Source: a candidate division WOR-3 bacterium
GTDB lineage: Bacteria; Hydrothermota; Tepidihabitantia; SM23-42
Reading direction: 5' to 3'
Assembly (NCBI GenBank): GCA_020343595.1
Contig: CP070802.1
Span: 228,435 to 292,434 of the forward strand
Length of the DNA stretch: 64,000 bases
Shown: positions 1 through 64,000 of the stretch, one piece after another
Position numbering within the stretch: the first letter of the stretch is position 1
Layout of the letters: the number at the start of each line of letters is the position of its first letter
Program-made: the position numbers and the translations under genes
The notes under the pieces: model-generated
What the model saw: only the letters and a program-made list of their open reading frames with translations
What the model was told of the DNA's origin: nothing
The model's database searches: none

Positions 1-381
1 GAACGGAGCAAGAACATTATTGGGACGTGCAGTACTCGGTATCGTGGGAAATGGAGCTGCTTCGAGAAAGTTATCACCAAACGCAATATAGCCGTTCGAA
101 CCAACGAAGAATGAGTTCACCGTGTACCAGTAATAAGGAAAATCGAATCCAATTGAGAATGGTCCTACCACATTGTCATCGCCGAGGCCAGTTACCTGAG
201 TGCCAACCGTCGATATATCAATCCAGTTATAGGTCGGCACCGGTAAAGTCGGTGATGAAGTATCACTATCGACCCAGCGGTAGCCGTAGGCATCGGGGCC
301 GCCGGCACCACGGACGACTGCGGGGGTCGTCGCGGTGAACCCGGAGCCAGTTATTTGAAGAAACAATAATACTATTGCCAT
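1..381 (-). CDS. Secreted protein, N-terminal part (3' end runs off the window start)
   Basis: ATG at 381..379 preceded by AGGAGG (382..390, minus strand). The product begins MAILLLFLQITGSGFTA, which is signal-peptide-like, then PDAYGYRWVDSD. Open to window edge. Confidence 0.5.
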   Translation of the reverse strand, partial: MAIVLLFLQITGSGFTATTPAVVRGAGGPDAYGYRWVDSDTSSPTLPVPTYNWIDISTVGTQVTGLGDDNVVGPFSIGFDFPYYWYTVNSFFVGSNGYIAFGDNFLEAAPFPTIPSTARPNNVLAPF

Positions 382-47220: not shown

Positions 47221-47248
47221 ACCGTCACCCCCCATGCAACAAATCCGA

Positions 47249-50634: not shown

Positions 50635-50957
50635 TTCGACAGGCTATCTTCGGAGCGGATCTGATTGTAGTGTTCTTCGATCACTGTATTGTCCCCTGGA
50701 TCGAGTAGCATCTGAAATTCCTGCCACAGCCGTTCGATCTCTGGCTCGGCGTTGACAAGTTCAATGCCGCGTCGGTACGCCGCCTCATCCTGATACCATT
50801 GTATTTCCAGCCACTGGCATGGATCATCCACTTTCTGTAAATGGACAACCCTGTATGTAACATGCTTCTTGTAGATGCGATCTGCCCGCTCCTGGATATC
50901 GAGAAAGTCTTTTATCTTGCTCGGCTGAATGCGGTAGCGGTATACTTTCACATACAT
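50631..50957 (-). CDS. Hypothetical protein (possibly ABM/Dabb-like small alpha+beta fold)
   Basis: 108 aa ORF, translationally coupled at both ends (overlaps of 4 and 1 nt). I cannot support a specific family. Confidence 0.4.
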   Translation of the reverse strand: MYVKVYRYRIQPSKIKDFLDIQERADRIYKKHVTYRVVHLQKVDDPCQWLEIQWYQDEAAYRRGIELVNAEPEIERLWQEFQMLLDPGDNTVIEEHYNQIRSEDSLSK

Positions 50958-52060: not shown

Positions 52061-53755
52061 TCAACCTCTTTGAGCCTTTTCGATCTTGGCCCACGTGTCA
52101 CGCAGCGAGACTGTCCGGTTGAAAACCAGTGATCTTTCCGTCGATTCCGGGTCAACGCAGAAATAGCCGAGACGTTCGAACTGGTAACGGCTGCCAACGC
52201 GCGCTGTACTCAAACTCGGCTCGAGCTTACAGCCGCTCAAAACTTCCAGCGATCTGGGATTCACATTCGCCCGGAAATCCTTTCCCTCACCGTCAACCTC
52301 ATCCGGAGCCCCTCTTGTGAACAGACGATCGTACAACCTGACTCCTGCATCGATGGCGTCAGGTGCCGAAACCCAGTGCAGGGTTGCCTTTACTTTTCTG
52401 CCGTCAGGCGAATCACCGCCCCGGGTCTTAGGGTCGTAGGTGCAGCGAAGTTCGACGGCCTTACCATCCTTGTTCTTCTTCACGTCAACGCACTTCACAA
52501 AATAGGCATATCGCAATCTCACCTCTCTTCCCGGCGCGAGACGGTAGTACTTGGGCGGTGGTTCTTCCCGGAAATCATCCTGTTCAATATACAGGACACG
52601 GGAGAATGGGACCTTGCGCGTACCCATGCTCTCATCTTCGGGATTGTTTACGGCATCTAACTCTTCCGTCTTTCCTTCCGGGTAGTTATCGATCACCACT
52701 TTTAGCGGACGCAGGACTCCCATCACGCGCGGTGCATTTCTGTTCATGTAATCACGTACGAAGTGCTCAAGCTTTGCAATTTCGATGACGCTCTCTGCCT
52801 TGGCAACACCGATGCCTTCACAGAAATTACGGATCGATTCCGGAGGATAACCACGCCTGCGCATACCAGCGAGGGTCGGCATTCGAGGATCATCCCATCC
52901 CTTAACAAAACCTTCTTCGACCAATTTGCGTAACTTGCGTGTGCTCGTGATAGTGTAGCTGAGGTTGAGACGGGAGAATTCAATCTGCTGGGGATGGTGG
53001 ACTCCCAGATTATCAAGGAACCAGTCATACAAGGGGCGGTGATCCTCGAATTCCAGAGAGCACAGCGAGTGAGTGATCCCTTCGATCGAATCCGACTGAC
53101 CATGAGCCCAATCATAGGTCGGGTAGATACACCACTCATCGCCGGTCCGGTGGTGGGTAGCGCGGAGTATCCGGTACATCACCGGGTCACGCATGTTCAT
53201 GTTACCCGCTGACATGTCTATCTTCGCGCGCAATACTTTGCTGCCGTCAGGGAATTCACCTTTCCGCATTCTTGTGAACAATTCAAGATTCTCCTCGATT
53301 GTCCGGCTGCGAAACGGACTGTCCCTGCCCGGAGCAGTCAGGGTGCCGCGGTACTCACGAATCTGTTCGGCACTCAGATCGTCGACGTACGCCTTGCCTT
53401 TCTTTATGAGATCGATGGCCCAGTCATATAGTTGCCCGTAGTAATCCGAAGCATAGTATTCACGGTCTTTCCAGTCAAAACCTAACCATCGGATATCTTC
53501 CTTTATCGAATCAATGTACTGCTGCTCTTCACGTGTCGGATTCGTGTCGTCGAACCTTAGATTACATAACCCGTTGTATTTCAGGGCAATGCCGAAATCT
53601 ATGCAGATCGCTTTGGCATGGCCGATGTGCAGATACCCGTTGGGTTCAGGCGGAAATCTGGTGTGCACACGGCCTTCGTATTTACTGGTGCGTAGATCTT
53701 CTTCAACTATCTCTTCGATAAAGTTTGTCGGTTTGCTTCTACGATCTTCCTGCAA
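52061..53755 (-). CDS. glnS: Glutaminyl-tRNA synthetase
   Basis: Class I HIGH motif ([15 protein letters not shown]). [13 protein letters not shown] aligns with the GlnRS N-terminus. C-terminal anticodon-binding barrels. The likely start is the TTG at 53755, after GGGAGAG. The track ORF begins 17 codons upstream at 53806 and would overlap the upstream gene. Confidence 0.8.
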
Positions 53756-53768
53756 ATTATCTCTCCCG

Positions 53769-54455
53769 TTAACTAAGCTGAATGGCAACGCTGCACACAT
53801 CATCACCCTTCAGCACGCTCTTCAGCAACTCGACCCTGACCGGGCGCTGAAGTATTTCTTCCCATATACCCTTGTAGTATCCGGCACCGCAATAGCAATA
53901 CGTGGATGAAATATTCGGACCGGTCATCAGCGAGTCACGGATCCTCGGACAGTGGCAATAGATCGCTCTCTTTTTCACTGGGTCTGCCTCCTCCAGATAT
54001 TCCTTTATATAGGCGCTCTTGGGGATTTTAGTAGCAATTATTCTGGCTCCATCCCTCACGCCCGCAAGACCCCATCCTCTATCCACTATATCTGCAATCA
54101 TACCATCACTCAGATTCAGGCCGTCCTTAAGAAAGGAAACAAATCTCTCCTGGAGCATGCCTATCACCTGGTCTGTGTCTCCTGTTTCTTCGTACCGTTT
54201 TCTTACATCCTGCAGATCATTCTTCGGGTATTGGCATGAACAACCGGTCATTATCCGTCTGCTCGTCTCGGCTTCGACGAGTTCATCGAGTCTGTCCATT
54301 GCTCCTTTGGACCACTCGATGACCTTATCCCGATCCGTACTATCAGAAAATCCCTCACTTCCGGCCATGACCTTCTTGCGGATTTCGGCGTTCGTCTCAC
54401 CTTCTATGCAGACGCCGAATTTTTCGAGCCAGGTCTTCTCAAAATCGGTTGGCAT
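53769..54455 (-). CDS. Hypothetical Cys-rich protein
   Basis: 228 aa with several Cys pairs ([18 protein letters not shown]). No family recognised. Confidence 0.45.
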
Positions 54456-54478: not shown

Positions 54479-55966
54479 CTATTTAAATTCAAATCTCGCC
54501 TTAAAATGGCGCAGAGGCAACTCCCGTCCATACGTAACCTTCACCCCAGGGATTTCATTCCGGCAATTATGCAGCACTCTCATTGCTTCAGCCACTGCAT
54601 CCAGATCTTGCTTTTCGTACCTCAAACGCGGTACCGCAAAACGAACGAAATTAACTTCCGGGAAGATGTCGACTTTCTTGACTCTATCGAAATGTCCAAA
54701 GGTAAAATATCCAAGTTCACAGGCTCTGTGACCGTACGCGGCGAGTAGAACGGCACATAGAGCAACTCCTCCGAAATCATCCGGTCTCATCTTCGTACCT
54801 TCAAAAAACTTATCGACATCAACGTATACAGCATGACCGCCCACCGGCATTACGACCGGAACGCCTCTGCTGCACATACCTTCGCCGAATTCCCGTACCT
54901 GGTTGATACGATAAGCCAGATATTCTTTATCGGTAACCGCCGCTAATCCAGATGCCAGCGCCATGATATCACGGCCTGATAGACCACCATAGGTCGGATG
55001 GCCTTCTTTTAAAATCTGGTAATCGAGCAGCACGCCCGGTATCTGCGGGTATTTCTTCACAAAAAGACCATCTGCCTTCAAGAACAGACCACCGCCCATA
55101 TTCGTTAGGCCATCTTTCTTGAAGCTGATCGTGAAGCCGTCAGCATGCGAGAACATTTCGTGCACTATATCCTTGACTTGCTTGCTCTTGTAGCCATGCT
55201 CGTGTTGTTGTATGAACCAGGCATTCTCGGCAAAACGGCATGCATCAAAGAAGAAAGGAATTTTATACTGATGAGCCAACGAGGATACTGCTCTAATGTT
55301 CTCCATTGACACGGGCTGCCCACCTGCCGTATTGTTGGTTATCGTCAAGTAAATGAGTGGTACCCGGTCACGGGCTTCCTCGAGCAGGCTCTTCAACTTC
55401 ACAACATTCATATTCCCCTTGAAGTGAAAACCCAAGTCGCGGTCAGCCAACTCATCGCAAAAGAGATTCAGCGCCTGCATTCTATTCGCTTCAATATTCG
55501 CTCCCGTCGTGTCAAAATGTCCATTACTCGGAACAATCATGTTCTGGCCCAGCCTGCCGACCTGCGTGAAAAGAGCATCTTCGCTTGCTCTCCCCTGATG
55601 GAAGATAAAGGCATTCGGCTCGCCCTTGCCGGGCTCGTTGAAGAAGACTTCTCCAAAGGTGGTCCGTATTTGGTCCTTGAGAGCAAAGTAACCACGGTTG
55701 GAACCGTATGCCTCATCACCCATGTGAAGGGCGGCCCACTGTTCATTGGTCATTGTCGTCACTCCTGAATCCGACAGCAGATCGCAACCGGTTATCATTT
55801 CCGATGGAAAGAAGAAGACATTCAAACCGACCCTTGCCAAAACCTCTGCCCTTTGCTCGGCAGTGAAAGCTTTCTTCTTTTCCACCGAGTGGTTGAAGTA
55901 AGGCCTAGGAATCGAACCGAGTTCCTTTTCGGAAGCTAACTTGTTCAGCAGCGATTTCAGCTTCAT
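54479..55966 (-). CDS. Beta-eliminating lyase (tryptophanase / tyrosine phenol-lyase family)
   Basis: 495 aa with the PLP-Lys motif SFKKDGLTNMGG. Overall TnaA/Tpl-like length and motifs. Confidence 0.8.
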   Translation of the reverse strand: MKLKSLLNKLASEKELGSIPRPYFNHSVEKKKAFTAEQRAEVLARVGLNVFFFPSEMITGCDLLSDSGVTTMTNEQWAALHMGDEAYGSNRGYFALKDQIRTTFGEVFFNEPGKGEPNAFIFHQGRASEDALFTQVGRLGQNMIVPSNGHFDTTGANIEANRMQALNLFCDELADRDLGFHFKGNMNVVKLKSLLEEARDRVPLIYLTITNNTAGGQPVSMENIRAVSSLAHQYKIPFFFDACRFAENAWFIQQHEHGYKSKQVKDIVHEMFSHADGFTISFKKDGLTNMGGGLFLKADGLFVKKYPQIPGVLLDYQILKEGHPTYGGLSGRDIMALASGLAAVTDKEYLAYRINQVREFGEGMCSRGVPVVMPVGGHAVYVDVDKFFEGTKMRPDDFGGVALCAVLLAAYGHRACELGYFTFGHFDRVKKVDIFPEVNFVRFAVPRLRYEKQDLDAVAEAMRVLHNCRNEIPGVKVTYGRELPLRHFKARFEFK

Positions 55967-55975
55967 AACATGCTC

Positions 55976-57181
55976 TCACCCATCCTGGTTTTCGTTCACT
56001 GACTCGTACAGAAGCTCAGAAATATCCTTAACCTCAATATCCAGATTCATCGCCTTCACGGTCTCTTCGAACATCTGAAGGCAGTATGGACATGCAACCG
56101 CGATAACCTCGGCACCAGTATCGACCAACTGTTTCACACGTATGTCGGCCATGCGCTCACCCTTGGGCCAGTCGATCCAGAGCGCCCCGCTTCCCGCACC
56201 GCAGCAAAGGCTCAGGTTGCGCGAGAAATCCTCAACCTCCAGTAATTCCAGACCAGGGATACTCTTGAGGATATTCCTCGGTGGATCGTAAATGCCACTC
56301 TGACGTCCGAGCGTACACGGGTCGTGGTATACTACTTTCTTCTTCAAACTCTTTTTCGGGACTATTTTCCCGCGCTCGATGCAGTCCCACAAAAATTCCG
56401 TAGCATGTACCGCCTTGAATTCGCCGCCGAAATCCGGATATTCCTTCTGAAAAGTCACGAGACAGTGAGGCGAACTGACGAGCGCCATCTTCACATTAGC
56501 CTCCTTGAAGCCATCGATGTTAGATCGGGCAGTCTCTTCGAAGACCTTCTCGGCACCAACCCTACGGATGGCCTCGCCGCAGCAACTCTCCTTTTGTCCA
56601 AGAATGCCGAAAGAAACACCGGCACGCTTGAGCAACCCGGCCGTAGATCTTGCGACGTTCCTGATCCTGTTATCGTACGAAGGCAAGCAGCAGGCGAAAT
56701 ACAGCATCTCCATATTCTCCGAATAATCGCCGATAAGGAGTTCTTTCGCCCAGTCACCACGATTTTCACGCGGCTCACCGAGTGGATTTCCTACGTTGTG
56801 AATCTTCTGGACAACGGATTTGAGGTTCTCCGGATAGGAGCCAAAATCTACCAGAATCCTCCGTGCCGACCGCAGGATATGAGGCATCTCCACTCCCAAC
56901 GGACATTGATCAACGCAAGCCTCGCAGCCGACACAACGGTAGATCTTATCGACTTCCCTGGCCAACTCATCCTTGTCCTCACTGCTCGCGATAAGACCAA
57001 GTACCGTTTCGAGGGGAAACCTGAACACAAGAAACTCATATGTTCCCACTTGAAACCAGGGACATACGCTGGCACATTTGCCGCATTGATAGCACTTGTA
57101 GGCATCAACCGCGCCCATTTCCACAAGAGCATCCCTGATCTCTGGGTTTATCTCCGCGACTATGTTCTTTTTATTCGCCAA
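55976..57181 (-). CDS. HdrD/GlcF-like Fe-S oxidoreductase (2x[4Fe-4S] ferredoxin domain plus two CCG domains)
   Basis: 401 aa. CYQCGKCASVCP and CVGCEACVDQCP, followed by two CCG-type Cys-rich domains (CCGEAIRR, CCGAGSGALW). Confidence 0.75.
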   Translation of the reverse strand: MANKKNIVAEINPEIRDALVEMGAVDAYKCYQCGKCASVCPWFQVGTYEFLVFRFPLETVLGLIASSEDKDELAREVDKIYRCVGCEACVDQCPLGVEMPHILRSARRILVDFGSYPENLKSVVQKIHNVGNPLGEPRENRGDWAKELLIGDYSENMEMLYFACCLPSYDNRIRNVARSTAGLLKRAGVSFGILGQKESCCGEAIRRVGAEKVFEETARSNIDGFKEANVKMALVSSPHCLVTFQKEYPDFGGEFKAVHATEFLWDCIERGKIVPKKSLKKKVVYHDPCTLGRQSGIYDPPRNILKSIPGLELLEVEDFSRNLSLCCGAGSGALWIDWPKGERMADIRVKQLVDTGAEVIAVACPYCLQMFEETVKAMNLDIEVKDISELLYESVNENQDG

Positions 57182-60100
57182 GGATAACCTCCACCATTTT
57201 TGAAATCTGCTTTTCGACCAGATTCTTCTGTTGTGAAGCTCCGCTCGGACACGCTGCTACACAACATCCGCATCCCATACACAGTGCTTCGTTTATTCTT
57301 ACGATATTCTTTTCCTCATCGATCTCTCGCGCCTCGTAGGGACACGTAACAACGCACATTTTGCAGCCACTACACATTTCCTCATCGATCACAACGACCA
57401 TCGGTTCGGCGGTCAATTCCTTTTTGGAGAACATTTCGAGTGCCTTGGATGCCGCCGCCGATGCCTGAGCAACACTCTCGGGAATATCTTTCGGCGTCTG
57501 AGCACAACCGGCGAGGAAGAATCCAGGCACGAGGGATTCCACCGGCCGTAATTTTGGATGAGCCTCATTGAAGAATCCATGGATATTTGTCTGTATTCTG
57601 AGTTTCTTTGCCAAATCGGATGTCTCCATTGAAGGCACCACTGCCATCGACAACACCACCATATCACACTTGACCTTGAGTGGACGGCCGGTCAGCGTAT
57701 CAGTGCTCCACACAATAAGGTCTTTGCCGTCTTTAATTACACGCGACGGCTTACCGCGGATGTAAAGCACATTCTCTCCTTCCTTCGCCCGCATGAAGAA
57801 CTCTTCATAGTCTTTTCCCGCCGTCCTTATGTCTATCGAAAATACTACTGCTTCACCATCGGGCACACGTTCCTTGTACAACAGGGCATGTTTCGTGTTG
57901 TACATACAGCAGATCTTTGAGCAATACGGGAGATGGTGTTCCGGATCACGCGAACCGGCGCATGATATGAAAGCAATTCTCTTTGGTATGCTATTGTCGG
58001 ATGGTCTACGAATCTCGCCTTGCGTGGGTCCGGAAGCAGACAGCAGACGTTCAAACTGAAGGCCATCTATCACATCTTCATACCGGCCCGCACCGTACTC
58101 ACGGATCTTCTCGACCGGGTACAGCTCGTAACCGGTAGCGACGATCACGGCACCAACCTCTTCTTCCACCAGTTCATCCTCCATGCCGTGCACTATCGCA
58201 TCTTGTTCACAAGCCTTCTCACACTCACCACATTCAGTGCATCCTCCACAGGCGAAACAGCGTAAAGCCTCGATCTTGGTCTGTTCGGCAGTCAGCCCCA
58301 AATTAACTTCATCGAAATTGCCAGTCCGATCGGCAGCAGAGAGTGTGCGCACCTCCTGCCGTAAATTATCCTTGATGGTTCTCGGCAGGATTATATTCTT
58401 AACCGGTTCGGTCCTCGCCCGGTTCTCATACATGTCGGCGCCATTGAAATATCGATCAATAGAAACCGCCGCCTCCTTACCGTCGGCGATCGCCCAGATT
58501 ACCGTATCTGGACCCCGTACCGCGTCACCTCCGGCAAAAACACCCGGTATCGACGTTTGCTTTGTAGTATCATCAACGACAATACTACCCCATTCGCTTG
58601 TCTCTATCCCCGTTCCTGCTGGAAGGTAGGACAGATCAGGTGATTGTCCGATGGTTACGACAACGGTATCGACTCCGATCGTAAAATCAGAGCCCGGTAT
58701 TGGCTCGGGACGCCGGCGTCCGGATTCATCAGGCGCGCCGAGTCGCATCTGTATGCACTTCATTTCCTTCAAGGTACCACCACTACCGACAAAAGATATC
58801 GGTGTCGCGAGGAATCTGATTTCAATACCTTCCTTCATTGCCTCTTCGATCTCATCAGGATCAGCTGGCATTTCCGTAAGGGAACGCCTGTAGACGATCG
58901 TCACTTCTTTTGCACCCAGCCTGAGCGCAGTGCGCGCGGCATCGATGGCGGAATTACCACCGCCGACCACGGTAACCCGGGACCCTACTGCGGGCTTTTC
59001 TTCGAGGTTGGCACGGCGTAAGAAATCGATGCCATAGTAGACGCCCTGCAAGTCCTCACCGTCGACGTTCAATCTCCGTTCGACATGCGCGCCGCTACTG
59101 AGATACACCGCATCAAAACCGCTCTTCCGAAGCTTTTCTGGATCTTCGATCCTTTGCCCGGTTACGATCTCAACACCCCATGACTTGATGTAATCGATAT
59201 CCTGTTCGAGCATCTTACGTGGCAACCTGAATTCGGGAATACCTGTTATCAACATCCCACCGGCTACTGGCAGCGCCTCAAAGACTTTTGCTTTGTATCC
59301 ACGTTTCGCCAAGAAGTATGCACAACTCAATCCTGACGGACCGGCGCCAACCACTGCCACCTTTTTCTTACGTTCCTCTGGTTTATCATGTGCCGGCAGC
59401 TGTTCTTCAACATCGGAGATGAACCGTTTTATCGCGCGTATCGACACAGCATCACCGAACTCAGCCCTCTTGCATTCTGATTCGCATGGATGCGTGCACA
59501 CGCGACCGCAGACCGAGGCAAATGGATTGTCCTCGCGCTCAAGAGCGAGTGCCTCCTTGAACTTACCTTGCGATGAAAGCGCGACGTACCCCTGGACGTT
59601 AACACCTGCCGGGCACGCCGTACGGCAAGGAGGTACACCCCTCTTGTCAATCGTGTAGACATTGGGCACGGCCTGAGGGAATGGTCGGTAGATGGCTTTC
59701 CTCTGTGAAAGTCCTGAGTCAAATTCATTTACCATCAATACAGGACACGCCGGATCGCAATCCGCACAGCCATTGCATTTGTTATTATCAACGAAAGATG
59801 CTTTCCTTCTTATCTTCACCCGGAAATTACCGACCGAACCCGCTACTTCTTCAACTTCCGAGTACGTGTAGAGTTTTATCTTTTCATGGTGTGAAACATC
59901 CACCATCTTAGGCGTGAGGATACACTGTGAGCAATCAAGGGTAGGAAAGGTCTCGGACAACTGCGCCATATGACCTCCCACCGACGGGCTTTTTTCAACC
60001 AGCACCACTTCATAGCCGGAATTTGCAATATCGAGCGCCGCCTGAATGCCGGCAATGCCGCCGCCGAGCACAAGTGCTCTTGTGTTAACCGGGATCTTTG

Positions 60101-60503
60101 CTGGTTCTAAAGCATCATTGTATTTGACCTTCTCAATCGTTGCCTTTATGATCCCGCTCGCTTTTCTCGTCGCCTCCTTGCCATCATCGTGGATCCAACT
60201 GCACTGCTCCCTTATGTTCGCCATCTCCAGGAGGTATGGATTAAGACCGGCATCCTGTATGGCCCGTCGGAACGTAACCTCGTGCAGCAACGGGCTGCAT
60301 GAGGCAACCACGATAGCATCAAGTTTCTTCTCCCTTAGCTTCTCCTTGATCATTACCTGACCAGGATCTGAACACAGGTACTTGTAATCCTCGCAGTGCT
60401 CTACCCCAGGATGCGTGCTGATATCCTTCACCAATTGCTCGATATCCACCTTAGTGCTAATATTCCTCCCACAGTGACAGATAAAGACGCCTATTCTCTT
60501 CAT
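57171..60503 (-). CDS. HdrA-like flavoprotein with N-terminal MvhD-like domain and inserted GltD/NfnB-like NAD(P)H-binding module
   Basis: 1110 aa. HdrA FAD motif VLGGGIAGIQAAL...FPTLDCSQCI. Inserted module with GAGPSGLSCAYFLA and VVGGGNSAIDAA, like the glutamate synthase small subunit. C-terminal CFACGGCTECGECEKAC. Two terminal 4Fe-4S motifs, CSGCKMCVVTCP and CMGCGCCVAACP. Confidence 0.8.
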   Translation of the reverse strand: MKRIGVFICHCGRNISTKVDIEQLVKDISTHPGVEHCEDYKYLCSDPGQVMIKEKLREKKLDAIVVASCSPLLHEVTFRRAIQDAGLNPYLLEMANIREQCSWIHDDGKEATRKASGIIKATIEKVKYNDALEPAKIPVNTRALVLGGGIAGIQAALDIANSGYEVVLVEKSPSVGGHMAQLSETFPTLDCSQCILTPKMVDVSHHEKIKLYTYSEVEEVAGSVGNFRVKIRRKASFVDNNKCNGCADCDPACPVLMVNEFDSGLSQRKAIYRPFPQAVPNVYTIDKRGVPPCRTACPAGVNVQGYVALSSQGKFKEALALEREDNPFASVCGRVCTHPCESECKRAEFGDAVSIRAIKRFISDVEEQLPAHDKPEERKKKVAVVGAGPSGLSCAYFLAKRGYKAKVFEALPVAGGMLITGIPEFRLPRKMLEQDIDYIKSWGVEIVTGQRIEDPEKLRKSGFDAVYLSSGAHVERRLNVDGEDLQGVYYGIDFLRRANLEEKPAVGSRVTVVGGGNSAIDAARTALRLGAKEVTIVYRRSLTEMPADPDEIEEAMKEGIEIRFLATPISFVGSGGTLKEMKCIQMRLGAPDESGRRRPEPIPGSDFTIGVDTVVVTIGQSPDLSYLPAGTGIETSEWGSIVVDDTTKQTSIPGVFAGGDAVRGPDTVIWAIADGKEAAVSIDRYFNGADMYENRARTEPVKNIILPRTIKDNLRQEVRTLSAADRTGNFDEVNLGLTAEQTKIEALRCFACGGCTECGECEKACEQDAIVHGMEDELVEEEVGAVIVATGYELYPVEKIREYGAGRYEDVIDGLQFERLLSASGPTQGEIRRPSDNSIPKRIAFISCAGSRDPEHHLPYCSKICCMYNTKHALLYKERVPDGEAVVFSIDIRTAGKDYEEFFMRAKEGENVLYIRGKPSRVIKDGKDLIVWSTDTLTGRPLKVKCDMVVLSMAVVPSMETSDLAKKLRIQTNIHGFFNEAHPKLRPVESLVPGFFLAGCAQTPKDIPESVAQASAAASKALEMFSKKELTAEPMVVVIDEEMCSGCKMCVVTCPYEAREIDEEKNIVRINEALCMGCGCCVAACPSGASQQKNLVEKQISKMVEVILGE

Positions 60504-60505
60504 GG

Positions 60506-61480
60506 CTACTTTTTCACTTCCAGTATCTTGCTCTTCAATACCGGCAAGACCTTGAAAAGATCGTCGACGATACCGTAGTCGGCTTCGTTGAAGATTGGTG
60601 CATTCGGATCCTTGTTGATGGCGATTATTGTATCGGAATTCTTCATCCCCGCGATGTGTTGAAATGCCCCCGAAATACCGATCGCAATGTAAAGCTTCGG
60701 CTTGACGGTCTTTCCCGAAGATCCAACTTGCCGGTCCTTGGGCAGCCAGTTCGCATCAACTATCGGCCGTGAGCACGCAACGACGCCACCGACAGCACTG
60801 GCAAAATCCTCGACCATGGACAGATTCGCTTGCTCCTTTATACCACGGCCAATACCGACGACCACATCGGCTTTAGTGATATCAACATCCCCAACCGCTG
60901 CTTCGACATATTCTATGAATCTCCTGTACTCGGGCTGGCTCGTGAGCGGTGCATCTATTTTCTCGATCTCGGCAGAGAGGCCACCGTCTTCTGCCGGACA
61001 AGTGCCGCTCCGCAATGTCAGCATATAGTGAGGACCCTGGGCCAGTCTCAGATGGGCATCCATCTTACCATCATACAGCTGACGTGTCACCCTGATACCT
61101 CCATCCACGACTTCCACTCCTATACAGTCGGTGGTGAAAGGAATACCGAGTTGGGTCGCAAGCGATGGGCAGAAATCTATGCCGAACGCGGTATTACCAA
61201 TAATGGTCAGAAAAGGGCTCTCCTTCTTGACGACGGCAGAGATCGCCTCCTGATATACGTCGCCGTTGAAATCCTTGAAAACTTCATGGTCAGCAACGAC
61301 AAGACGATGAACGTGTTTCTTGATATCTTCCTGGAGGTCATCGGTATTATGACCCAGCAACACGCCAATCAATTTCGCATTGGTCTTTTCTGCCAGTTTT
61401 CTCCCGAACGTCATCAATTCGTACGTGATGTCTCTGACTACTCCCTGACGGTGTTCAACCACTGTTAGAATATCAGCCAT
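60506..61480 (-). CDS. etfA: Electron transfer flavoprotein alpha subunit
   Basis: 324 aa. ETF alpha FAD-binding C-terminus (LYIAIGISGAFQHIAGMKNSDTIIAINKD). Confidence 0.85.
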   Translation of the reverse strand: MADILTVVEHRQGVVRDITYELMTFGRKLAEKTNAKLIGVLLGHNTDDLQEDIKKHVHRLVVADHEVFKDFNGDVYQEAISAVVKKESPFLTIIGNTAFGIDFCPSLATQLGIPFTTDCIGVEVVDGGIRVTRQLYDGKMDAHLRLAQGPHYMLTLRSGTCPAEDGGLSAEIEKIDAPLTSQPEYRRFIEYVEAAVGDVDITKADVVVGIGRGIKEQANLSMVEDFASAVGGVVACSRPIVDANWLPKDRQVGSSGKTVKPKLYIAIGISGAFQHIAGMKNSDTIIAINKDPNAPIFNEADYGIVDDLFKVLPVLKSKILEVKK

Positions 61481-61490
61481 TATTCCCCCC

Positions 61491-62261
61491 TTAGATCAGT
61501 CCCTTTTCTTTGATTATACCTGCGGTTCTCGTCGCAACTTCATCAGTGTTACCGCTCATAATCTCGGCTCTCTTTCCAACGGGTGGTATGAAAAGTTCTT
61601 CGAGTGTGCTGTTGGTCTTGGCTTCAAGAGCAATGTCGCTCTTACCCACAACCTTGATCTCTTTTGCAGCCGCTCTGCGTATCGCGATCAACGACGCATA
61701 ACGTGGTTCATTGATGCCGGTTTGCACGGCAAAGACTGCCGGTAATGACATCTGGAGATGCTCGATCAAACCGCCCTCAAGTTCACGATTTACATCAGCC
61801 TTGCCGTCAGTTATGTCCACCTTGCTCACCAAAGTCGCGTGAGGCACGCCGAGCATTTCAGCAAGTACCGGACCCACCTGGTAATAACTATCGTCGGTCG
61901 CCACGCAGCCGGTGAATATCGCGTCGAATTTTGTGTCTTTTATCACCTCTTTTAGCAATGCGGCGGTCTTGAATCCATCCAGATCCCCGAAATCCTCAGC
62001 CTTTATCCTGATTGCACTGTCAGCTCCCTTTGCCAGAGCAATACGAAGGGTATCTTCAGCATCAGCTATACCGAGGGAAACCGCAGTTATGGTCCCACCG
62101 AATTTCTCTTTGAGAAGGATCGCCGCTTCGAGAGCATATGTATCTGCCTCGTTCATATCGAACGTCAAACGATCCCTGACTATATCCTTGCCCGTTGCAT
62201 CAACCTTGACCTCGGCCTCAGCGGTCTGGGCAACTCTCTTAACGCAGACGATCAGGTCCAA
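61491..62261 (-). CDS. etfB: Electron transfer flavoprotein beta subunit
   Basis: 256 aa. ETF beta N-terminus MDLIVCVKRV, and conserved AVSLG and DAIFTG segments. Confidence 0.85.
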   Translation of the reverse strand: MDLIVCVKRVAQTAEAEVKVDATGKDIVRDRLTFDMNEADTYALEAAILLKEKFGGTITAVSLGIADAEDTLRIALAKGADSAIRIKAEDFGDLDGFKTAALLKEVIKDTKFDAIFTGCVATDDSYYQVGPVLAEMLGVPHATLVSKVDITDGKADVNRELEGGLIEHLQMSLPAVFAVQTGINEPRYASLIAIRRAAAKEIKVVGKSDIALEAKTNSTLEELFIPPVGKRAEIMSGNTDEVATRTAGIIKEKGLI

Positions 62262-62405
62262 AACAACCTCCTTCCTAAAATCAAATTCCTAAATCCGCCT
62301 GATGCGGCCAAAATACCTAAACTACCTAAACATGTAAGCAGCCACCATAAATGTCTCAACAACTTACCGCCCTTTAGGTATTTAGGATTTTTGGTATTTA
62401 GTTAT
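62262..62405. repeat. Family A repeat element, copy 4 (with hairpin core)
   Basis: AAATTCCTAAATCC-GCCTGATGCGGC-CAAAATACCTAAACTACCTAAAC ... CTTTAGGTATTTAGGATTTTTGGTATTTAG. About 60 nt are collinear with copy 2. Lies upstream of etfB. Confidence 0.65.
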
Positions 62406-63551
62406 TTATCTCGTAAGTTCTCTCGCGATAACGATCTTCTGGACTTCAGATGTACCCTCATATAACTCCAGGATCTTGGCGTCGCGGTACAGTCTTTCCA
62501 CTGCGTAGTCCTTTGAATATCCATAGCCGCCGTGTATTTGAACCGCCTTCCTGACCACATCAACGGCAATATCAGACGCATAGTATTTTGACATCGCCGA
62601 TTCCTTGGAGAACCTCTTCATACCTTTGTCTTTGCAGTAACCTGCATAATGGACTAAGAGACGTGCCGCCTGGATCTGAGTTGCCATTTCAGCCAGCATT
62701 GACTGGATCATTTCGAAGTTACATATCGGTTGTCCGAATGCTTTACGCTCCTTCGAATACTTCACTGCTTCATCCAGAGCAGCCTGAGCAATACCGACTG
62801 CCTGCGCGCCTATATCGATACGCGAAACATCGAGTGTGTTCATACATATCTTGAAACCATCGCCTTCATTAGCAAGGAGATTCTCTTTCGGTACTTTGAC
62901 ATCCTCGAAGATCAATTCGCAATTTGCCGTCGCCCTAATGCCCATCAGGTCTTCATGATTCCCGAGACTGAAGCCGGGTGTGTCGCGCTCGACCACAAAG
63001 GCGCTGATCCCCTTGTGTTTCAGTTCCCTGTTGGTATAGGCAAATACAACAAATGTCCCGGCCTCACCGCCGTTGGTGATGAAACGTTTTGTCCCGTTAA
63101 GGATGTAGTGGTCGCCTTCCAACCTTGCCGTCGATTCCATGGCGGCGACATCCGACCCCGCATTAGGTTCGGTAAGACCAAACGCACCGACTCTTTCACC
63201 ACTGCACAATGGCGGTAGATACTTCTTTTTCTGTTCTTCGTTACCGAACTGTGCTATCGGATATGTAGTCAACGAATTGTTCACGGCAACAATCACGCCG
63301 GTCGAGGCACAAGCACGGGAAATCTCCTCGATTGCGATAGCCAGTGACACAAAATCGAATCCGGAACCGCCGTATTGCTCTGGGACAATCACACCGAGTA
63401 AACCCAACTGCGCCATCTTTTTTATAGTAGCCCACGGGAACTCCCTGGATTTATCAATTTCCGGTGCCAGCGGTGCCAATTCACTCTGCGCGAACTTGCG
63501 TACTTCTTCCTGAAGCATCTTCTGATCATTGGTTAAATCAAAATTCATCAA
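62406..63551 (-). CDS. Acyl-CoA dehydrogenase (butyryl-CoA dehydrogenase-like)
   Basis: 381 aa. ACAD N-, middle and C-domains. C-terminal YEGTSEVQKIVIAR, and catalytic Glu region. Confidence 0.85.
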   Translation of the reverse strand: MMNFDLTNDQKMLQEEVRKFAQSELAPLAPEIDKSREFPWATIKKMAQLGLLGVIVPEQYGGSGFDFVSLAIAIEEISRACASTGVIVAVNNSLTTYPIAQFGNEEQKKKYLPPLCSGERVGAFGLTEPNAGSDVAAMESTARLEGDHYILNGTKRFITNGGEAGTFVVFAYTNRELKHKGISAFVVERDTPGFSLGNHEDLMGIRATANCELIFEDVKVPKENLLANEGDGFKICMNTLDVSRIDIGAQAVGIAQAALDEAVKYSKERKAFGQPICNFEMIQSMLAEMATQIQAARLLVHYAGYCKDKGMKRFSKESAMSKYYASDIAVDVVRKAVQIHGGYGYSKDYAVERLYRDAKILELYEGTSEVQKIVIARELTR

Positions 63552-63689
63552 ACCTCCTTAATCGTTGAAATCTCAAAATCCAAAATTCAAATCTCAGATG
63601 ATGGACATATCTCAAAACCCAAACGCTTTTTGTCCATCGTGATTGGTTTGATTGGTAATTTCTTGTTATTTGGACCTTTGTGATTTGAT

Positions 63690-63714
63690 ATTTAGGCAAG
63701 TCACTTGCCTAAAA
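63690..63714. repeat. Perfect palindrome built from two family A units (TTTAGGCAAGT-c-ACTTGCCTAAA)
   Basis: 11+1+11 nt perfect inverted repeat overlapping the stop codon of the partial ACAD gene. Lies upstream of bcd. Confidence 0.55.
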
Positions 63715-64000
63715 TTTGTCTGGCAATGACGATCTTCTGTATCTCGCTCGTTCCCTCACCGATCTCCATGAGTTTTTCATCCCTTATGAAACGCTCAACA
63801 GGATATACATCAGTCATGCCCAGTAATCCGTGAATGTCGATCGCCATGCTAGCCGCTTTCATACCAACTGTCGAGGCATAGTACTTGGCCATCGCAGCCT
63901 CCTTGACGTACGGCATACCAGCATCTTTCAGGGCAGAAGCCTGGTATACAAGCAAACGCGCGGCTTCGATATCCGTTGCCATCTCCGCGATCATTGACTG
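63701..64000 (-). CDS. Acyl-CoA dehydrogenase, C-terminal part (5' end beyond window end)
   Basis: The frame is open to the window edge. Its C-terminus, IGEGTSEIQKIVIARQILGK, is paralogous to the upstream ACAD. Confidence 0.7.
   Translation of the reverse strand, partial: QSMIAEMATDIEAARLLVYQASALKDAGMPYVKEAAMAKYYASTVGMKAASMAIDIHGLLGMTDVYPVERFIRDEKLMEIGEGTSEIQKIVIARQILGK

What the first reader, a model, noticed from the sequence alone, without database searches (positions are those of the whole stretch)
55976..64000. bcd, etfAB, HdrA-like (with GltD/NfnB insert) and HdrD-like cluster: candidate soluble electron-bifurcating or confurcating acyl-CoA oxidation module
Two acyl-CoA dehydrogenase genes and etfB/etfA are immediately followed by a 1110 aa HdrA-type flavoprotein. 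That protein carries an MvhD-like N-terminus and an inserted NAD(P)H-binding glutamate-synthase-beta-like module. A 401 aa HdrD/GlcF-like protein with two CCG domains comes next, overlapping it by 11 nt. No membrane anchor is evident on the HdrD-like protein. This architecture suggests that electrons from acyl-CoA oxidation via ETF are combined with a low-potential donor or acceptor on HdrA-like FAD. NAD(P)H would be the third partner, and a disulfide-type cofactor would be handled by the CCG domains. The physiological partners are unknown.
Basis: inference. Interest (0 to 1): 0.6.

Follow-up and report, generated by a model that had tools for sequence, protein, structure and literature searches.

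The report
ETF-linked HdrA/HdrD electron-bifurcation module
An uncultured WOR-3 bacterium carries a conserved operon that joins butyryl-CoA-type dehydrogenases and their electron-transfer flavoprotein to a soluble heterodisulfide-reductase-like pair with a built-in NADPH module, which probably lets fatty-acyl oxidation or reduction be coupled to ferredoxin without a membrane or quinones.

Summary
On the minus strand lie acd (partial), acd, etfB, etfA, a 1110-aa HdrA with a ~468-aa NfnB/GltD-like insert, and a 401-aa soluble HdrD-like protein that overlaps it by 11 nt.

The source is a candidate division WOR-3 MAG.

The Etf link is not accidental. In 17 of 17 species-representative genomes with a ≥59%-identical HdrD and enough flank, etfBA lies next to hdrA-hdrD; 16 of 17 also have acd.

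The HdrD-like protein is BamD-type. It has S-P-H-C instead of C-P-x-C, and the His/Trp/Tyr that fill the heterodisulfide pocket in Geobacter BamD. A 2026 preprint shows BamD docks ETF as high-potential acceptor. So the CCG domains are most likely an ETF-docking wire, not a disulfide site.

The NADPH insert is optional. Orthologous operons carry a plain 650-aa HdrA, or an HdrA split by a NuoEFG-like NADH module.

Best reading: a soluble HdrA-type bifurcating/confurcating NADPH:ferredoxin/ETF(acyl-CoA) oxidoreductase. It would be a functional analogue of Bcd-EtfAB with the bifurcation moved to HdrA.

Direction, ferredoxin as partner and internal wiring are inferred. I found no paper describing this module. 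It is a new variant of a known kind.

The parts
63701..64000 (-). 3' end (C-terminal ~99 codons) of an upstream acyl-CoA dehydrogenase gene that runs off the window
   Evidence: The translation ends ...GEGTSEIQKIVIARQILGK*, a typical ACAD C-terminus. Orthologous loci carry three tandem acd genes.
62406..63551 (-). Short-chain (butyryl-CoA-type) acyl-CoA dehydrogenase, 381 aa
   Evidence: Pfam finds Acyl-CoA_dh_N, _M and _1. The best PDB hit is the Bcd of the C. difficile Bcd-EtfAB complex, 5ol2_C, E 2.5e-132. The nearest NCBIfam model is AcrC at 502 bits, below its 640 cut-off.
61491..62261 (-). EtfB, 256 aa
   Evidence: Pfam ETF. The best PDB hit is the non-bifurcating W3A1 ETF beta, 1o94_C, E 4.7e-40. 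It has the NEPRYASL recognition loop and lacks the GRQAIDGDTAQVG motif seen in the bifurcating references.
60506..61480 (-). EtfA, 324 aa, no N-terminal ferredoxin domain
   Evidence: Pfam ETF plus ETF_alpha; PDB hits.
59640..60503 (-). HdrA-type protein, residues 1-288: N-terminal [4Fe-4S] domain, first part of the thioredoxin-reductase-like FAD domain, and the first cluster motif of the inserted ferredoxin domain
   Evidence: Aligns to 5odc_A 5-291. CHCGRNI, GGGIAG, DCSQC and CNGCADCDPACP are conserved.
58236..59639 (-). NfnB/GltD-like insert (residues ~289-756): two [4Fe-4S] motifs, FAD site, NADPH-type site
   Evidence: Pfam Fer4_20 plus Pyr_redox_2. PDB hit 5jca_L at E 2.5e-94. The insert is absent from the 76%-identical plain HdrA of L018, where window 1-287 and 757-1110 align to 1-287 and 298-651.
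58881..58976 (-). NAD(P)H-binding fingerprint VTVVGGGNSAIDAAR...VYRRS (GxGxxA plus RR)
   Evidence: Present in the window sequence. Every sequence that matched the pattern has A and RR: 60 of the 120 listed HdrL homologues plus 11 HdrL loci.
57171..58235 (-). HdrA-type protein, residues 757-1110 plus stop: second cluster motif of the inserted ferredoxin domain, rest of the FAD domain with its [4Fe-4S] and the conserved Lys871, and the C-terminal 2x[4Fe-4S] ferredoxin domain
   Evidence: Aligns to 8rvu_a 301-655 and 5odc_A 293-648.
55976..57181 (-). Soluble BamD-type HdrD-like protein, 401 aa: two cubane motifs plus two CCG (non-cubane cluster) domains
   Evidence: Pfam CCG x2 plus Fer4_8. EtfD 9ojn_A at E 3.8e-54. 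No TM segment. Cys/Ser/His pattern.
56462..56473 (-). S237-P-H239-C240 motif that replaces the CxxC of CCG domain 1
   Evidence: Aligned to EtfD C581-P-H583-C584. Ser in 61 and His in 64 of the 67 aligned sequences; S, H and C together in 60 of 67.
54479..55966 (-). Tryptophanase-family beta-eliminating lyase, 495 aa; a possible further operon member whose role in the module is unknown
   Evidence: It starts 9 nt after hdrD. It passes the NF009709 cut-off. It is conserved directly downstream of hdrD in 12 loci.

Best explanation
The cluster encodes a soluble, membrane-independent redox complex of the HdrA family, in which ETF takes the place of the heterodisulfide.

Proposed electron path:
1. 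Acyl-CoA dehydrogenases exchange electrons with a (probably one-FAD) EtfAB.
2. EtfAB docks on the non-cubane Fe-S clusters of the BamD-type HdrD-like subunit.
3. The two cubane clusters of that subunit wire the electrons to the [4Fe-4S] cluster next to the FAD of the HdrA-type subunit.
4. The HdrA-type subunit also carries a built-in GltD/NfnB-like FAD/2x[4Fe-4S] module that binds NADPH.
5. It keeps the 2x[4Fe-4S] ferredoxin domains through which HdrA enzymes talk to ferredoxin.

The most likely overall reaction is reversible: 2 NADPH + Fd(ox) + enoyl-CoA <-> 2 NADP+ + Fd(red) + acyl-CoA. This has the same stoichiometry as clostridial Bcd-EtfAB, but the flavin-based bifurcation sits on HdrA (or on the NfnB-like flavin) instead of on the ETF beta-FAD.

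Shown here:
- Domain content.
- Solubility of the HdrD-like subunit.
- BamD-type residues.
- Conserved synteny.
- NADPH-type fingerprint.

Inferred:
- Complex formation.
- ETF docking, by analogy with BamD, EMO and EtfD.
- Ferredoxin as third partner.
- Bifurcation itself.
- Physiological direction.
For: 1. Synteny.
- Of 17 GTDB species-representative genomes with HdrD >=59% identical and >=6 kb of upstream sequence, 17 have etfA and etfB, and 16 have hdrA immediately adjacent. The 17th has hdrA behind a ~240-nt gap. 16 have acd.
- The same order is seen in metagenome contigs from Neomarinimicrobiota and Cloacimonadota.
- Start/stop overlaps between hdrA and hdrD recur: 11 nt here and in L004, 8 nt in L007 and L008.

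2. The HdrD-like subunit is of the ETF-docking type.
- Its best solved relative is the ETF:menaquinone oxidoreductase EtfD (E 3.8e-54), against 1.9e-11 or weaker for HdrC and HdrB.
- His239 aligns with the cluster-ligand His583 of EtfD.
- Ser237, His239, Trp335 and Tyr366 match the Cys-to-Ser change and the His230/Trp325/Tyr356 that the BCRII preprint reports for BamD. In a BamD-like comparator next to a fused HdrA dimer and an AOR-family gene, these columns fall at residues 230, 325 and 356.
[quoted passage not shown] The EMO preprint shows an EMO-EtfAB structure.

3. The HdrA core is intact. It keeps the N-terminal cluster, the CSxC pair, the Lys aligned with 5odc_A K409, the cluster next to FAD, and the C-terminal diferredoxin domain.

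4. The insert is NfnB-like with a conserved GxGxxA plus YRRS fingerprint.

5. An independent NADH module (NuoE/F/G-like) is inserted in the same HdrA domain in the same operon in other lineages. A Flx-like NAD-binding set sits beside HdrA and BamD-type HdrD in Acidobacteriota. So an NAD(P)H module recurs with this HdrA/HdrD pair.

6. 2-oxoacid:ferredoxin oxidoreductase genes adjoin HdrL or HdrA/HdrD in other contexts. This points to ferredoxin as a partner.

7. EtfB lacks the motif shared by the bifurcating references and is closest to a non-bifurcating ETF. The bifurcating flavin is therefore more likely on the Hdr side.

8. The ACAD is closest to Bcd of a bifurcating Bcd-Etf complex.
Against: - There is no experimental datum for any member of this operon family.
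- The NAD(P)H module sits in the inserted ferredoxin domain. In methanogen HdrA and in BamE this is the low-potential output arm. A 2025 study of archaeal type III HdrA reads this as NAD+ replacing ferredoxin as acceptor. If so, the third partner is not ferredoxin.
- About half of the orthologous operons have a plain HdrA with no NAD(P)H module. NADPH is therefore not essential to the Etf-HdrA-HdrD core.
- Some genomes have EtfBA-HdrD with no HdrA nearby.
- The ETF type is not settled. The family consensus VCIKRVPQT...DDxYxQVGP partly resembles the bifurcating motifs.
- Direction is ambiguous. The NADPH fingerprint and thermodynamics favour enoyl-CoA reduction. The surrounding branched-chain acyl-CoA catabolic genes favour oxidation.
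- The ETF-BamD precedent is a preprint, based on a 7.9 A subtomogram map plus enzyme assays.
Confidence: 0.5

Rival explanations
1. Canonical HdrA wiring with NADP+ as the 'low-potential' acceptor. The GltD insert replaces the ferredoxin site, ETF/enoyl-CoA is the high-potential acceptor, and an unidentified mid-potential donor feeds the N-/C-terminal domains. That donor could be an MvhD-linked hydrogenase or formate dehydrogenase, or a flavodoxin-like carrier encoded elsewhere.
For: The insert lies between the two cluster motifs of the inserted ferredoxin domain, which is the ferredoxin-reducing arm of methanogen HdrA and of BamE. The archaeal type III HdrA study proposes a repurposing of the Fd site for NADH. 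HdrL in other loci sits next to MvhD and [NiFe] hydrogenase genes. Many WOR-3 MAGs encode MvhADG.
Against: No MvhD/FlpD, hydrogenase or FDH gene was found among the annotated neighbours in the window or in any of the Etf-linked loci. With H2, formate or reduced ferredoxin as donor, both acceptors (about -320 and about 0 mV) are downhill, so bifurcation would serve no purpose. A donor near -180 mV is not evident.
Confidence: 0.2
2. Non-bifurcating chain. HdrL-HdrD is simply an NADPH:ETF oxidoreductase that feeds a soluble NADPH-dependent enoyl-CoA reductase system, without ferredoxin coupling, like the non-bifurcating acryloyl-CoA reductase-Etf of C. propionicum.
For: NADPH to ETF/enoyl-CoA is strongly downhill and needs no coupling. 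The nearest NCBIfam models for the ACAD and EtfA are the acryloyl-CoA reductase subunits, though below their cut-offs.
Against: The full HdrA apparatus is conserved: N-terminal cluster, CSxC, Lys, and two ferredoxin domains. So are plain-HdrA operons that lack any NAD(P)H site. Such conservation is hard to explain for a simple wire. All characterised HdrA complexes bifurcate (established knowledge).
Confidence: 0.15
3. The ETF itself is the bifurcating unit (Bcd-EtfAB type, two FAD, NADH-dependent). HdrL-HdrD would be an accessory Nfn-like ferredoxin/NADPH balancing enzyme that merely shares the operon.
For: The ACAD is closest to Bcd of bifurcating complexes. The EtfB family consensus (KRVPQT, QVGP) partly resembles the bifurcating motifs. 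The insert is NfnB-like.
Against: EtfB lacks DGDT and scores best against the AMP-binding W3A1 ETF. The HdrD-like subunit has the ETF-docking BamD/EMO signature rather than a free-standing Nfn partner, and no NfnA-like gene is adjacent. hdrA-hdrD is tied to etfBA in 17 of 17 loci even when the Nfn-like insert is absent.
Confidence: 0.1
4. A genuine (hetero)disulfide reductase. The CCG domains would reduce a thiol cofactor or a DsrC-like protein disulfide, and the Etf/Acd adjacency would be incidental.
For: CCG domains form the catalytic site in HdrB. HdrL-HdrABC of sulfate reducers has been proposed to act on DsrC.
Against: One of the ten canonical Cys is replaced by Ser. His, Trp and Tyr occupy the positions that block the heterodisulfide pocket in BamD. 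HdrB and HdrC similarity is marginal (E 1e-4 to 1e-11) against 3.8e-54 for EtfD. Synteny with etfBA is conserved across phyla.
Confidence: 0.03

Closest known systems
BamDE with ETF (BamOP) in class II benzoyl-CoA reductase of Geobacter metallireducens (bioRxiv 10.64898/2026.04.10.717634)
   Same: An HdrA-type flavoprotein is paired with a soluble HdrD-like subunit. That subunit has the Cys-to-Ser change and the His/Trp/Tyr-filled pocket. ETF is the high-potential partner, and an NAD(P)H module belongs to the system.
   Different: BamE is a fused HdrA dimer without a GltD insert. NADH and reduced ferredoxin enter through separate BamGHI plus MvhD-like BamF. The low-potential output goes to the tungsten enzyme BamBC. 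None of BamB, C, F, G, H or I is present here; acd genes are. HdrD identity to BamD-like comparators is about 42%.
ETF:(methyl)menaquinone oxidoreductase EMO / EtfD (DUF224; M. smegmatis 9OJN, S. aciditrophicus EMO)
   Same: The cytoplasmic HdrC+HdrB-like module is homologous (E 3.8e-54). It has the His ligand on the proximal non-cubane cluster and a variable distal cluster. It is genetically linked to etfBA and beta-oxidation.
   Different: EMO/EtfD has an N-terminal five-helix haem-b membrane domain and delivers electrons to quinone. The window protein has no membrane segment and is instead translationally coupled to HdrA.
Electron-bifurcating Bcd-EtfAB (Clostridium, Acidaminococcus)
   Same: The predicted overall reaction is the same. 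The ACAD is most similar to these Bcd proteins (5ol2_C, E 2.5e-132). It is soluble and quinone-independent.
   Different: There the bifurcating flavin is the beta-FAD of ETF and no Hdr proteins are involved. Here EtfB lacks the motif shared by the bifurcating references, and the Hdr pair is added.
HdrL / type III HdrA (Desulfobacterium autotrophicum, Syntrophobacter fumaroxidans, ANME-1)
   Same: HdrA has a ~470-500-aa GltD/NfnB-like module inserted in the inserted ferredoxin domain. Function is uncharacterised.
   Different: The described examples sit with MvhD, HdrBC, FdhB or POR genes, not with etfBA/acd. The ANME examples are reported with GxGxxG, whereas the window has GxGxxA plus RR. Some HdrL proteins are ~1500-aa double-HdrA fusions.
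MvhADG-HdrABC and FlxABCD-HdrABC
   Same: The HdrA core is the same (E ~1e-203 to methanogen HdrA), as is the three-terminal bifurcation logic with an HdrB/C-type high-potential arm.
   Different: There is no hydrogenase, MvhD or Flx subunit here. HdrB and HdrC are fused and remodelled into a BamD-type protein. The NCBIfam HdrA equivalog cut-offs are not reached.
NfnAB (NfnSL) transhydrogenase
   Same: The insert is homologous to NfnB/NfnL over its FAD, NADPH and two-cluster parts (E 2.5e-94).
   Different: There is no NfnA partner. About the first 45-50 residues of NfnB are not covered. The module is embedded in HdrA.

Membership tests
HdrA (bifurcating heterodisulfide-reductase flavoprotein) | N-terminal domain with a four-Cys [4Fe-4S] site (CxCGxNI...) | tested here: met
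   CHCGRNI, ASCSP and REQCSW align with 5odc_A and 8rvu_a.
HdrA (bifurcating heterodisulfide-reductase flavoprotein) | Thioredoxin-reductase-like FAD domain with GxGxxG, a CSxC pair, a conserved Lys at the flavin, and an adjacent [4Fe-4S] cluster | tested here: met
   GGGIAG, DCSQC, K871 aligned with K409 of 5odc_A, and SCAGSRD...YCSKICCMY are all conserved. That this Lys is the N5-contacting one comes from my recollection of the HdrA structure paper; the BCRII preprint states only that such a Lys is conserved.
HdrA (bifurcating heterodisulfide-reductase flavoprotein) | Inserted ferredoxin domain (two CxxCxxCxxxC motifs) and C-terminal 2x[4Fe-4S] ferredoxin domain | tested here: met
   Both motifs of the inserted domain are present but separated by the ~468-aa insert. 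The C-terminal domain is intact.
HdrA (bifurcating heterodisulfide-reductase flavoprotein) | Orthology to CoB-CoM heterodisulfide reductase HdrA (NCBIfam equivalog cut-off) | tested here: not met
   HdrA2 model 809 bits against a 1100 cut-off. HdrA models 618 and 595 bits against 1300 and 1400.
HdrL / type III HdrA | GltD/NfnB-like FAD/NAD(P)H module inserted within the inserted ferredoxin domain | tested here: met
   The insert spans residues ~289-756, between IDK(R) and the second cluster motif. It is absent from the plain orthologue L018.
HdrL / type III HdrA | Co-location with an mvhD gene, as in the described HdrL loci | tested here: not met
   No FlpD/MvhD hit among the neighbours examined in the window or in the Etf-linked loci. 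Small ORFs of the window were not scanned exhaustively.
BamD-type soluble HdrD-like (non-cubane-cluster) protein | Two cubane [4Fe-4S] motifs plus two CCG domains, no membrane segment | tested here: met
   C30/33/36/40 and C83/86/89/93; CCG x2.
BamD-type soluble HdrD-like (non-cubane-cluster) protein | Cys-to-Ser change in the distal cluster, His ligand on the proximal cluster, Trp and Tyr filling the heterodisulfide pocket | tested here: met
   S237-P-H239-C240, W335 and Y366. In the BamD-like L059 protein the same columns fall at 230, 325 and 356, the numbers given for BamD. They are conserved in 60-64 of the 67 aligned sequences. Geobacter BamD itself was not available for direct alignment.
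BamD-type soluble HdrD-like (non-cubane-cluster) protein | Binds ETF at the non-cubane clusters | not testable with these tools
   Only indirect evidence: etfBA is adjacent in 17 of 17 close loci.
Class II benzoyl-CoA reductase (BamBCDEFGHI) | Tungsten AOR-type BamB with BamC, MvhD-like BamF, and HydBC-like BamGHI in the cluster | tested here: not met
   None of these domains occurs among the genes of the window that were scanned. For contrast, L059 has an AOR-family gene next to its HdrA/HdrD pair.
EMO / EtfD (ETF:menaquinone oxidoreductase) | HdrD-like cytoplasmic module homologous to EtfD | tested here: met
   9ojn_A at E 3.8e-54 over residues 75-396.
EMO / EtfD (ETF:menaquinone oxidoreductase) | N-terminal haem-b membrane domain (five TM helices) | tested here: not met
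   401 aa in total, with no 19-residue window above 1.18 on the Kyte-Doolittle scale.
Bifurcating Bcd-EtfAB (group 2 ETF) | Bcd-type short-chain acyl-CoA dehydrogenase | tested here: met
   5ol2_C at E 2.5e-132 and 4l1f_A at E 1.6e-122.
Bifurcating Bcd-EtfAB (group 2 ETF) | EtfB with the VPDT and GRQAIDGDTAQVG motifs shared by the two bifurcating ETFs aligned (CarD 6fah_B and A. fermentans 4kpu_B) | tested here: not met
   The window has VCVKRVAQTA and TGCVATDDSYYQVGP. Both bifurcating references have KQVPDT and GRQAIDGDTAQVG. The family consensus is intermediate. That these motifs define the class is from my recollection of Garcia Costas et al. 2017, which could not be fetched.
Bifurcating Bcd-EtfAB (group 2 ETF) | Second FAD instead of AMP in EtfB | not testable with these tools
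   Requires cofactor analysis.
NfnAB | NfnB-like large subunit together with an NfnA (PyrK-like [2Fe-2S]/FAD) partner | tested here: not met
   NfnB-like sequence is present, but no NAD_binding_1/DHODB_Fe-S gene is adjacent. Such a gene does occur next to HdrD in the Acidobacteriota loci.

The most novel reading that the evidence does not exclude
A previously undescribed class of soluble HdrA-based flavin bifurcation/confurcation complexes uses ETF, and through it any acyl-CoA dehydrogenase, as the high-potential partner. It is widespread in uncultured anaerobic phyla: WOR-3, Neomarinimicrobiota, Cloacimonadota, Gemmatimonadota and others.

Its ferredoxin arm has independently acquired different NAD(P)H modules: GltD-type here, NuoEFG-type elsewhere. 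It would give quinone-free fermenters and syntrophs a way to oxidise acyl-CoA by confurcation with reduced ferredoxin, or to conserve energy from enoyl-CoA reduction, without EMO, quinones or a bifurcating ETF.
Probability: 0.45. Interest if true: 0.75.

Novelty: new variant of a known kind. Interest (0 to 1): 0.62.

Why it matters
Re-oxidising ETF that has been reduced by acyl-CoA dehydrogenases (about 0 mV) is the hardest redox step in anaerobic fatty-acid and branched-chain amino-acid degradation.

The known solutions are:
- membrane EMO/EtfD with (methyl)menaquinone and reverse electron transport;
- the bifurcating Bcd-EtfAB run in one or the other direction.

A soluble Etf-HdrA-HdrD complex would be a third solution. 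It is conserved in several abundant but uncultured phyla of sediments and digesters. If real, it would change how ATP yields and H2/formate fluxes are modelled for them.

It would also extend the very recent finding that BamD-type Hdr subunits use ETF rather than a disulfide, from one specialised aromatic-ring reductase to a general module.

The three operon variants (plain, GltD-insert, NuoEFG-insert HdrA) offer a natural series for dissecting how HdrA is wired.

Tried and rejected
- Looking up the exact 1110-aa protein in the contig index found nothing. The source was identified from the protein search instead.
- The classification paper for bifurcating ETFs could not be fetched. The ETF type was judged from pairwise alignments to solved ETFs and stays inconclusive.
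- Literature searches were run for an Etf-HdrA-HdrD or WOR-3 description of this module. They found only HdrL/type III HdrA, EMO/EtfD and BCRII.
- The promoter/terminator scan gave counts at or below the shuffled expectation and nothing in the intergenic gaps.
- Rfam found nothing in 53-64 kb.
- Plus-strand ORFs overlapping the genes (for example 56324-57187 and 60830-61468) have no Pfam match and are treated as spurious.
- I considered whether the pair is a true BamDE of a benzoyl-CoA reductase. Rejected: there are no BamB, C, F, G, H or I genes, and HdrA is a single unit with an insert.
- I considered a membrane EMO. Rejected: there is no TM segment.
- Structure prediction and fold search were not run. 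The sequence matches were already unambiguous, and the BCRII coordinates are not in the PDB copy (one search returned no BamD chain).

Full report
**What is there**

The 64-kb window has a uniform negative GC skew, and nearly all its genes are on the minus strand. At its right end, read in the direction of transcription, lie these genes.

- The 3' end of an acyl-CoA dehydrogenase gene, 64000..63701.
- A complete acd, 63551..62406, 381 aa.
- etfB, 62261..61491, 256 aa.
- etfA, 61480..60506, 324 aa.
- A 1110-aa HdrA-type gene, 60503..57171.
- A 401-aa HdrD-like gene, 57181..55976, with a TTG start that overlaps the previous stop by 11 nt.

The gaps are 144, 10 and 2 nt, then the 11-nt overlap. 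A tryptophanase-family gene starts 9 nt further on, and a DUF6144 gene 23 nt after that.

Pfam, NCBIfam and PDB sequence searches confirm each assignment with very small E-values. No Rfam family matches the region, and the antisense ORFs have no Pfam match. The 1110-aa protein is 100% identical to a protein of a candidate division WOR-3 MAG on a 2.37-Mb contig. Only one acd gene is complete in the window.

**Anatomy of the large protein**

- Residues 3-288 and 755-1110 align end to end with methanogen HdrA (5odc_A, 8rvu_a; E ~1e-203).
- The N-terminal cluster motif, the FAD fingerprint, the DCSQC pair, the cluster beside the flavin and the C-terminal diferredoxin domain are all kept. So is the Lys that aligns with K409 of 5odc_A.
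- Residues ~289-756 are an NfnB/GltD-like module with Fer4_20, an FAD site and an NAD(P)H site (5jca_L, E 2.5e-94).
- The module is inserted exactly between the two cluster motifs of HdrA's inserted ferredoxin domain.
- A 76%-identical orthologue in another WOR-3 genome (L018, 652 aa) lacks the insert. Window residues 1-287 and 757-1110 align to its 1-287 and 298-651.
- The nucleotide fingerprint is VVGGGNSAIDAAR...VYRRS (GxGxxA plus Arg-Arg). By the classical rule this points to NADPH. Every sequence that matched the search pattern has it: 60 of the 120 listed HdrL homologues plus 11 HdrL loci.

This architecture is not new in itself. It was named HdrL in Desulfobacterium autotrophicum (PMC2702500). 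It has also been described as HdrA9-11 or 'type III HdrA' in ANME-1 and Bathyarchaeota (PMC9012536; PMC12054007). None of these has biochemistry. More than 8000 database proteins match at E<1e-50.

**Anatomy of the small protein**

The protein has two cubane motifs and two CCG domains. It has no hydrophobic segment (maximum 1.18, against seven segments in a control membrane protein).

Its best solved relative by far is the cytoplasmic part of mycobacterial EtfD, the ETF:menaquinone oxidoreductase (9ojn_A, E 3.8e-54). HdrC and HdrB reach only 2e-11 and 5e-4.

In the EtfD alignment, the CxxC of the first CCG domain reads S237-P-H239-C240, against C581-P-H583-C584 in EtfD.

Three recent structural papers bear on this.
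- In EtfD and in Syntrophus EMO a His ligates the proximal non-cubane cluster, the distal cluster is variable, and ETF docks there (PMC13083937; bioRxiv 10.64898/2026.08.18.745454).
- In Geobacter BamD, the soluble HdrD-like subunit of class II benzoyl-CoA reductase, a Cys-to-Ser change remodels the distal cluster, and His230, Trp325 and Tyr356 fill the heterodisulfide pocket.

In my alignment of 67 sequences (the window protein and 66 homologues), window residues S237, H239, W335 and Y366 are conserved in 60-64 sequences. In a BamD-like comparator these columns fall at residues 230, 325 and 356. That comparator sits next to a 1023-aa fused HdrA dimer and an AOR-family gene.

Longer relatives show the EMO pattern (C-H-G, 672 aa) and the EtfD pattern (746 aa) instead. 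The window protein is thus a BamD-type subunit. An ETF-docking electron wire is the better reading.

**Is the Etf link real?**

A scan of one genome per GTDB species with the HdrD-like protein returned 67 loci. I searched them with the window's proteins.

| HdrD identity to window | Loci with >=6 kb upstream | etfA + etfB | hdrA directly adjacent | GltD insert | acd |
|---|---|---|---|---|---|
| >=59% | 17 | 17 | 16 (the 17th after a 240-nt gap) | 9 | 16 |

These loci come from WOR-3, Neomarinimicrobiota, Cloacimonadales, Gemmatimonadota and unclassified MAGs. Gene calls on metagenome contigs show the same order and the same start/stop overlaps.

Conversely, HdrL homologues at 56-63% identity sit in other contexts:
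- with HdrBC, MvhD, fumarate-reductase-like genes and [NiFe] hydrogenase;
- with 2-oxoacid:ferredoxin oxidoreductase;
- with fumarase and citrate synthase.

So the conserved unit is acd-etfBA-hdrA-hdrD. The GltD insert is a variable accessory. By identity of the HdrA core, insert-bearing and plain versions are intermixed.

**Two further variants**

- In L025, L029 and L071 the same operon has hdrA split inside the inserted ferredoxin domain. The pieces are an HdrA N-half fused to a NuoE-like [2Fe-2S] domain, then a NuoF-like FMN protein, then a NuoG-N-like Fe-S segment fused to the HdrA C-half. This is an independent insertion of a different NADH module at the same place.
- In Acidobacteriota, a BamD-type HdrD sits with HdrA, a Fer4_22 protein, a PyrK/NfnA-like NAD-binding protein and POR genes, without Etf.

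An NAD(P)H module and ferredoxin-linked enzymes thus recur around this HdrA/HdrD pair. Some genomes have only etfBA-hdrD.

**Type of ETF and ACAD**

- EtfB scores best against the AMP-binding, non-bifurcating W3A1 ETF (E 4.7e-40, against ~2e-29 for bifurcating CarD and Acidaminococcus EtfB).
- It has the NEPRYASL recognition loop.
- It lacks the GRQAIDGDTAQVG and KQVPDT motifs that both bifurcating references show.
- The family consensus (VCIKRVPQT, TDDxYxQVGP) is intermediate, so this test leans towards non-bifurcating but is not conclusive.
- The ACAD is closest to the Bcd of the C. difficile and A. fermentans complexes and to mammalian SCAD.

**Context**

The window from about 16 to 45 kb encodes the following:
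- thiolases and an HMG-CoA-synthase-like protein;
- a 3-hydroxyacyl-CoA dehydrogenase and two enoyl-CoA hydratases;
- two biotin carboxylase/carboxyltransferase sets;
- two MCM-like mutases with MeaB;
- a CoA-transferase;
- two Cys/Met-type PLP lyases;
- an alanine dehydrogenase.

This is short- and branched-chain acyl-CoA metabolism linked to amino acids. The same neighbours follow the module in Neomarinimicrobiota. A methylcrotonyl-CoA-carboxylase-like set follows it in Cloacimonadota. A review of WOR-3 genomes cites a reactor MAG that expressed no quinone- or cytochrome c-dependent respiratory enzymes (PMC12542636).

**Mechanism**

The best-supported model is a three-terminal HdrA-type device.
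- Terminal one: ACAD to ETF to the non-cubane clusters of HdrD, then its cubanes, then the cluster next to the HdrA FAD. This rests on synteny, BamD-type residues and structural precedent.
- Terminal two: NADPH at the GltD-like flavin, wired through its two clusters into the split inserted ferredoxin domain. The domain content is shown; the wiring is inferred.
- Terminal three: ferredoxin at the remaining ferredoxin domain. This is inferred from thermodynamics and from POR/VOR neighbours in related loci.

With enoyl-CoA/acyl-CoA near 0 mV, NADPH near -320 to -370 mV and ferredoxin near -450 to -500 mV, NADPH is the only sensible mid-potential partner (established redox values). The overall reaction then equals that of Bcd-EtfAB, with the bifurcation moved from ETF to the Hdr side.

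Open points:
- The NAD(P)H module sits on what is the low-potential output arm in methanogen HdrA and in BamE. In BCRII the NADH module enters through the MvhD-like side instead. So either the roles of the arms are swapped, or the NfnB-like flavin is itself a bifurcation site sharing the ferredoxin arm, or NADP+ is the 'low' acceptor and an unknown donor exists (the rival model).
- Plain-HdrA operons lack any NAD(P)H site.
- Direction is unresolved. The NADPH fingerprint and energetics favour enoyl-CoA reduction. The three acd paralogues and the catabolic neighbours favour acyl-CoA oxidation by confurcation with ferredoxin reduced at the preceding 2-oxoacid step.

**Comparison and novelty**

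Each part belongs to a known kind: HdrA/HdrL, BamD-type HdrD, ETF and Bcd-type ACAD. ETF as partner of a BamD-type subunit has a single, very recent precedent in a specialised aromatic-ring reductase.

The combination acd-etfBA-hdrA(L)-hdrD, its wide distribution in uncultured phyla and its three NAD(P)H-module variants were not found in the literature I could search. The WOR-3 genome survey interprets Hdr genes only as Mvh-Hdr.

I rate it a new variant of a known kind, of clear interest to people working on electron bifurcation and syntrophy. It rests entirely on comparative inference.

Noticed in passing
L025 5108-10035 (also L029, L071): The same etfB-etfA-hdrA-hdrD operon, but hdrA is split inside the inserted ferredoxin domain. 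The pieces are HdrA 1-256 fused to a NuoE-like domain, then a NuoF-like FMN protein (617 aa), then a NuoG-N-like Fe-S segment fused to the HdrA C-half. This is an independent NADH-module insertion at the same domain as the window's GltD insert.
   Followed up: partly
L030-L048, e.g. L033 3000-11200: In Acidobacteriota (Sulfomarinibacteraceae/Thermoanaerobaculales), the order is POR beta/gamma, HdrA (~700 aa), two ORFs without Pfam hits, a Fer4_22 protein, a PyrK/NfnA-like NAD-binding protein, then a BamD-type HdrD. No Etf lies within 10 kb.
   Followed up: partly
L034, L040, L041, L045, L046, L050-L052; L049 (WOR-3 bin1061 chromosome): etfB-etfA-hdrD with no hdrA within 10 kb. L041 is a stand-alone three-gene unit. 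L049 has acd x3, etfBA, hdrD and the tryptophanase-like gene. What a soluble BamD-type HdrD passes electrons to in these genomes is unknown.
   Followed up: partly
window 54479-55966 and 53769-54455 (minus strand): A tryptophanase-family lyase passes the NF009709 cut-off. It starts 9 nt after hdrD and is conserved directly downstream of hdrD in 12 loci. A DUF6144 gene follows after 23 nt. No obvious link to the redox module.
   Followed up: partly
window ~16000-45400 (minus strand): A large acyl-CoA metabolism island: two thiolases plus an HMG-CoA-synthase-like gene, a 3-hydroxyacyl-CoA dehydrogenase, two enoyl-CoA hydratases, two biotin carboxylase/carboxyltransferase sets, two MCM-like mutases with MeaB, a CoA-transferase, two Cys/Met PLP lyases and an alanine dehydrogenase. 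Part of the order is shared with a Neomarinimicrobiota contig (L008).
   Followed up: partly
window 63691-63713: A perfect 10-bp palindrome (TTTAGGCAAG tca CTTGCCTAAA) overlaps the stop codon of the upstream acd, in the 150-nt gap before the next acd. It could be an operator or an attenuator-like hairpin.
   Followed up: no
P0030, P0088, P0118 (1470-1674 aa homologues): Longer HdrL relatives lack the HdrA N-terminal domain, carry the GltD insert and add a second thioredoxin-reductase-like HdrA unit. They are BamE-like double HdrA proteins with an NAD(P)H module.
   Followed up: partly
L004 7402-7863: A Uma2-family endonuclease gene is inserted between etfA and hdrL in an otherwise syntenic operon.
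   Followed up: no
window 52061-53806 and 50957-51961: The glutaminyl-tRNA synthetase ORF, if started at its first GTG, overlaps DUF6144 by 38 nt, so the real start is probably later. A 334-aa Fer4_16 protein (epoxyqueuosine-reductase/dehalogenase-like) follows.
   Followed up: no
window 45358-47235: A 625-aa predicted secreted protein with a DJ-1/PfpI domain, followed by a long repetitive Gly/Asp/Trp-rich region with no Pfam match.
   Followed up: no
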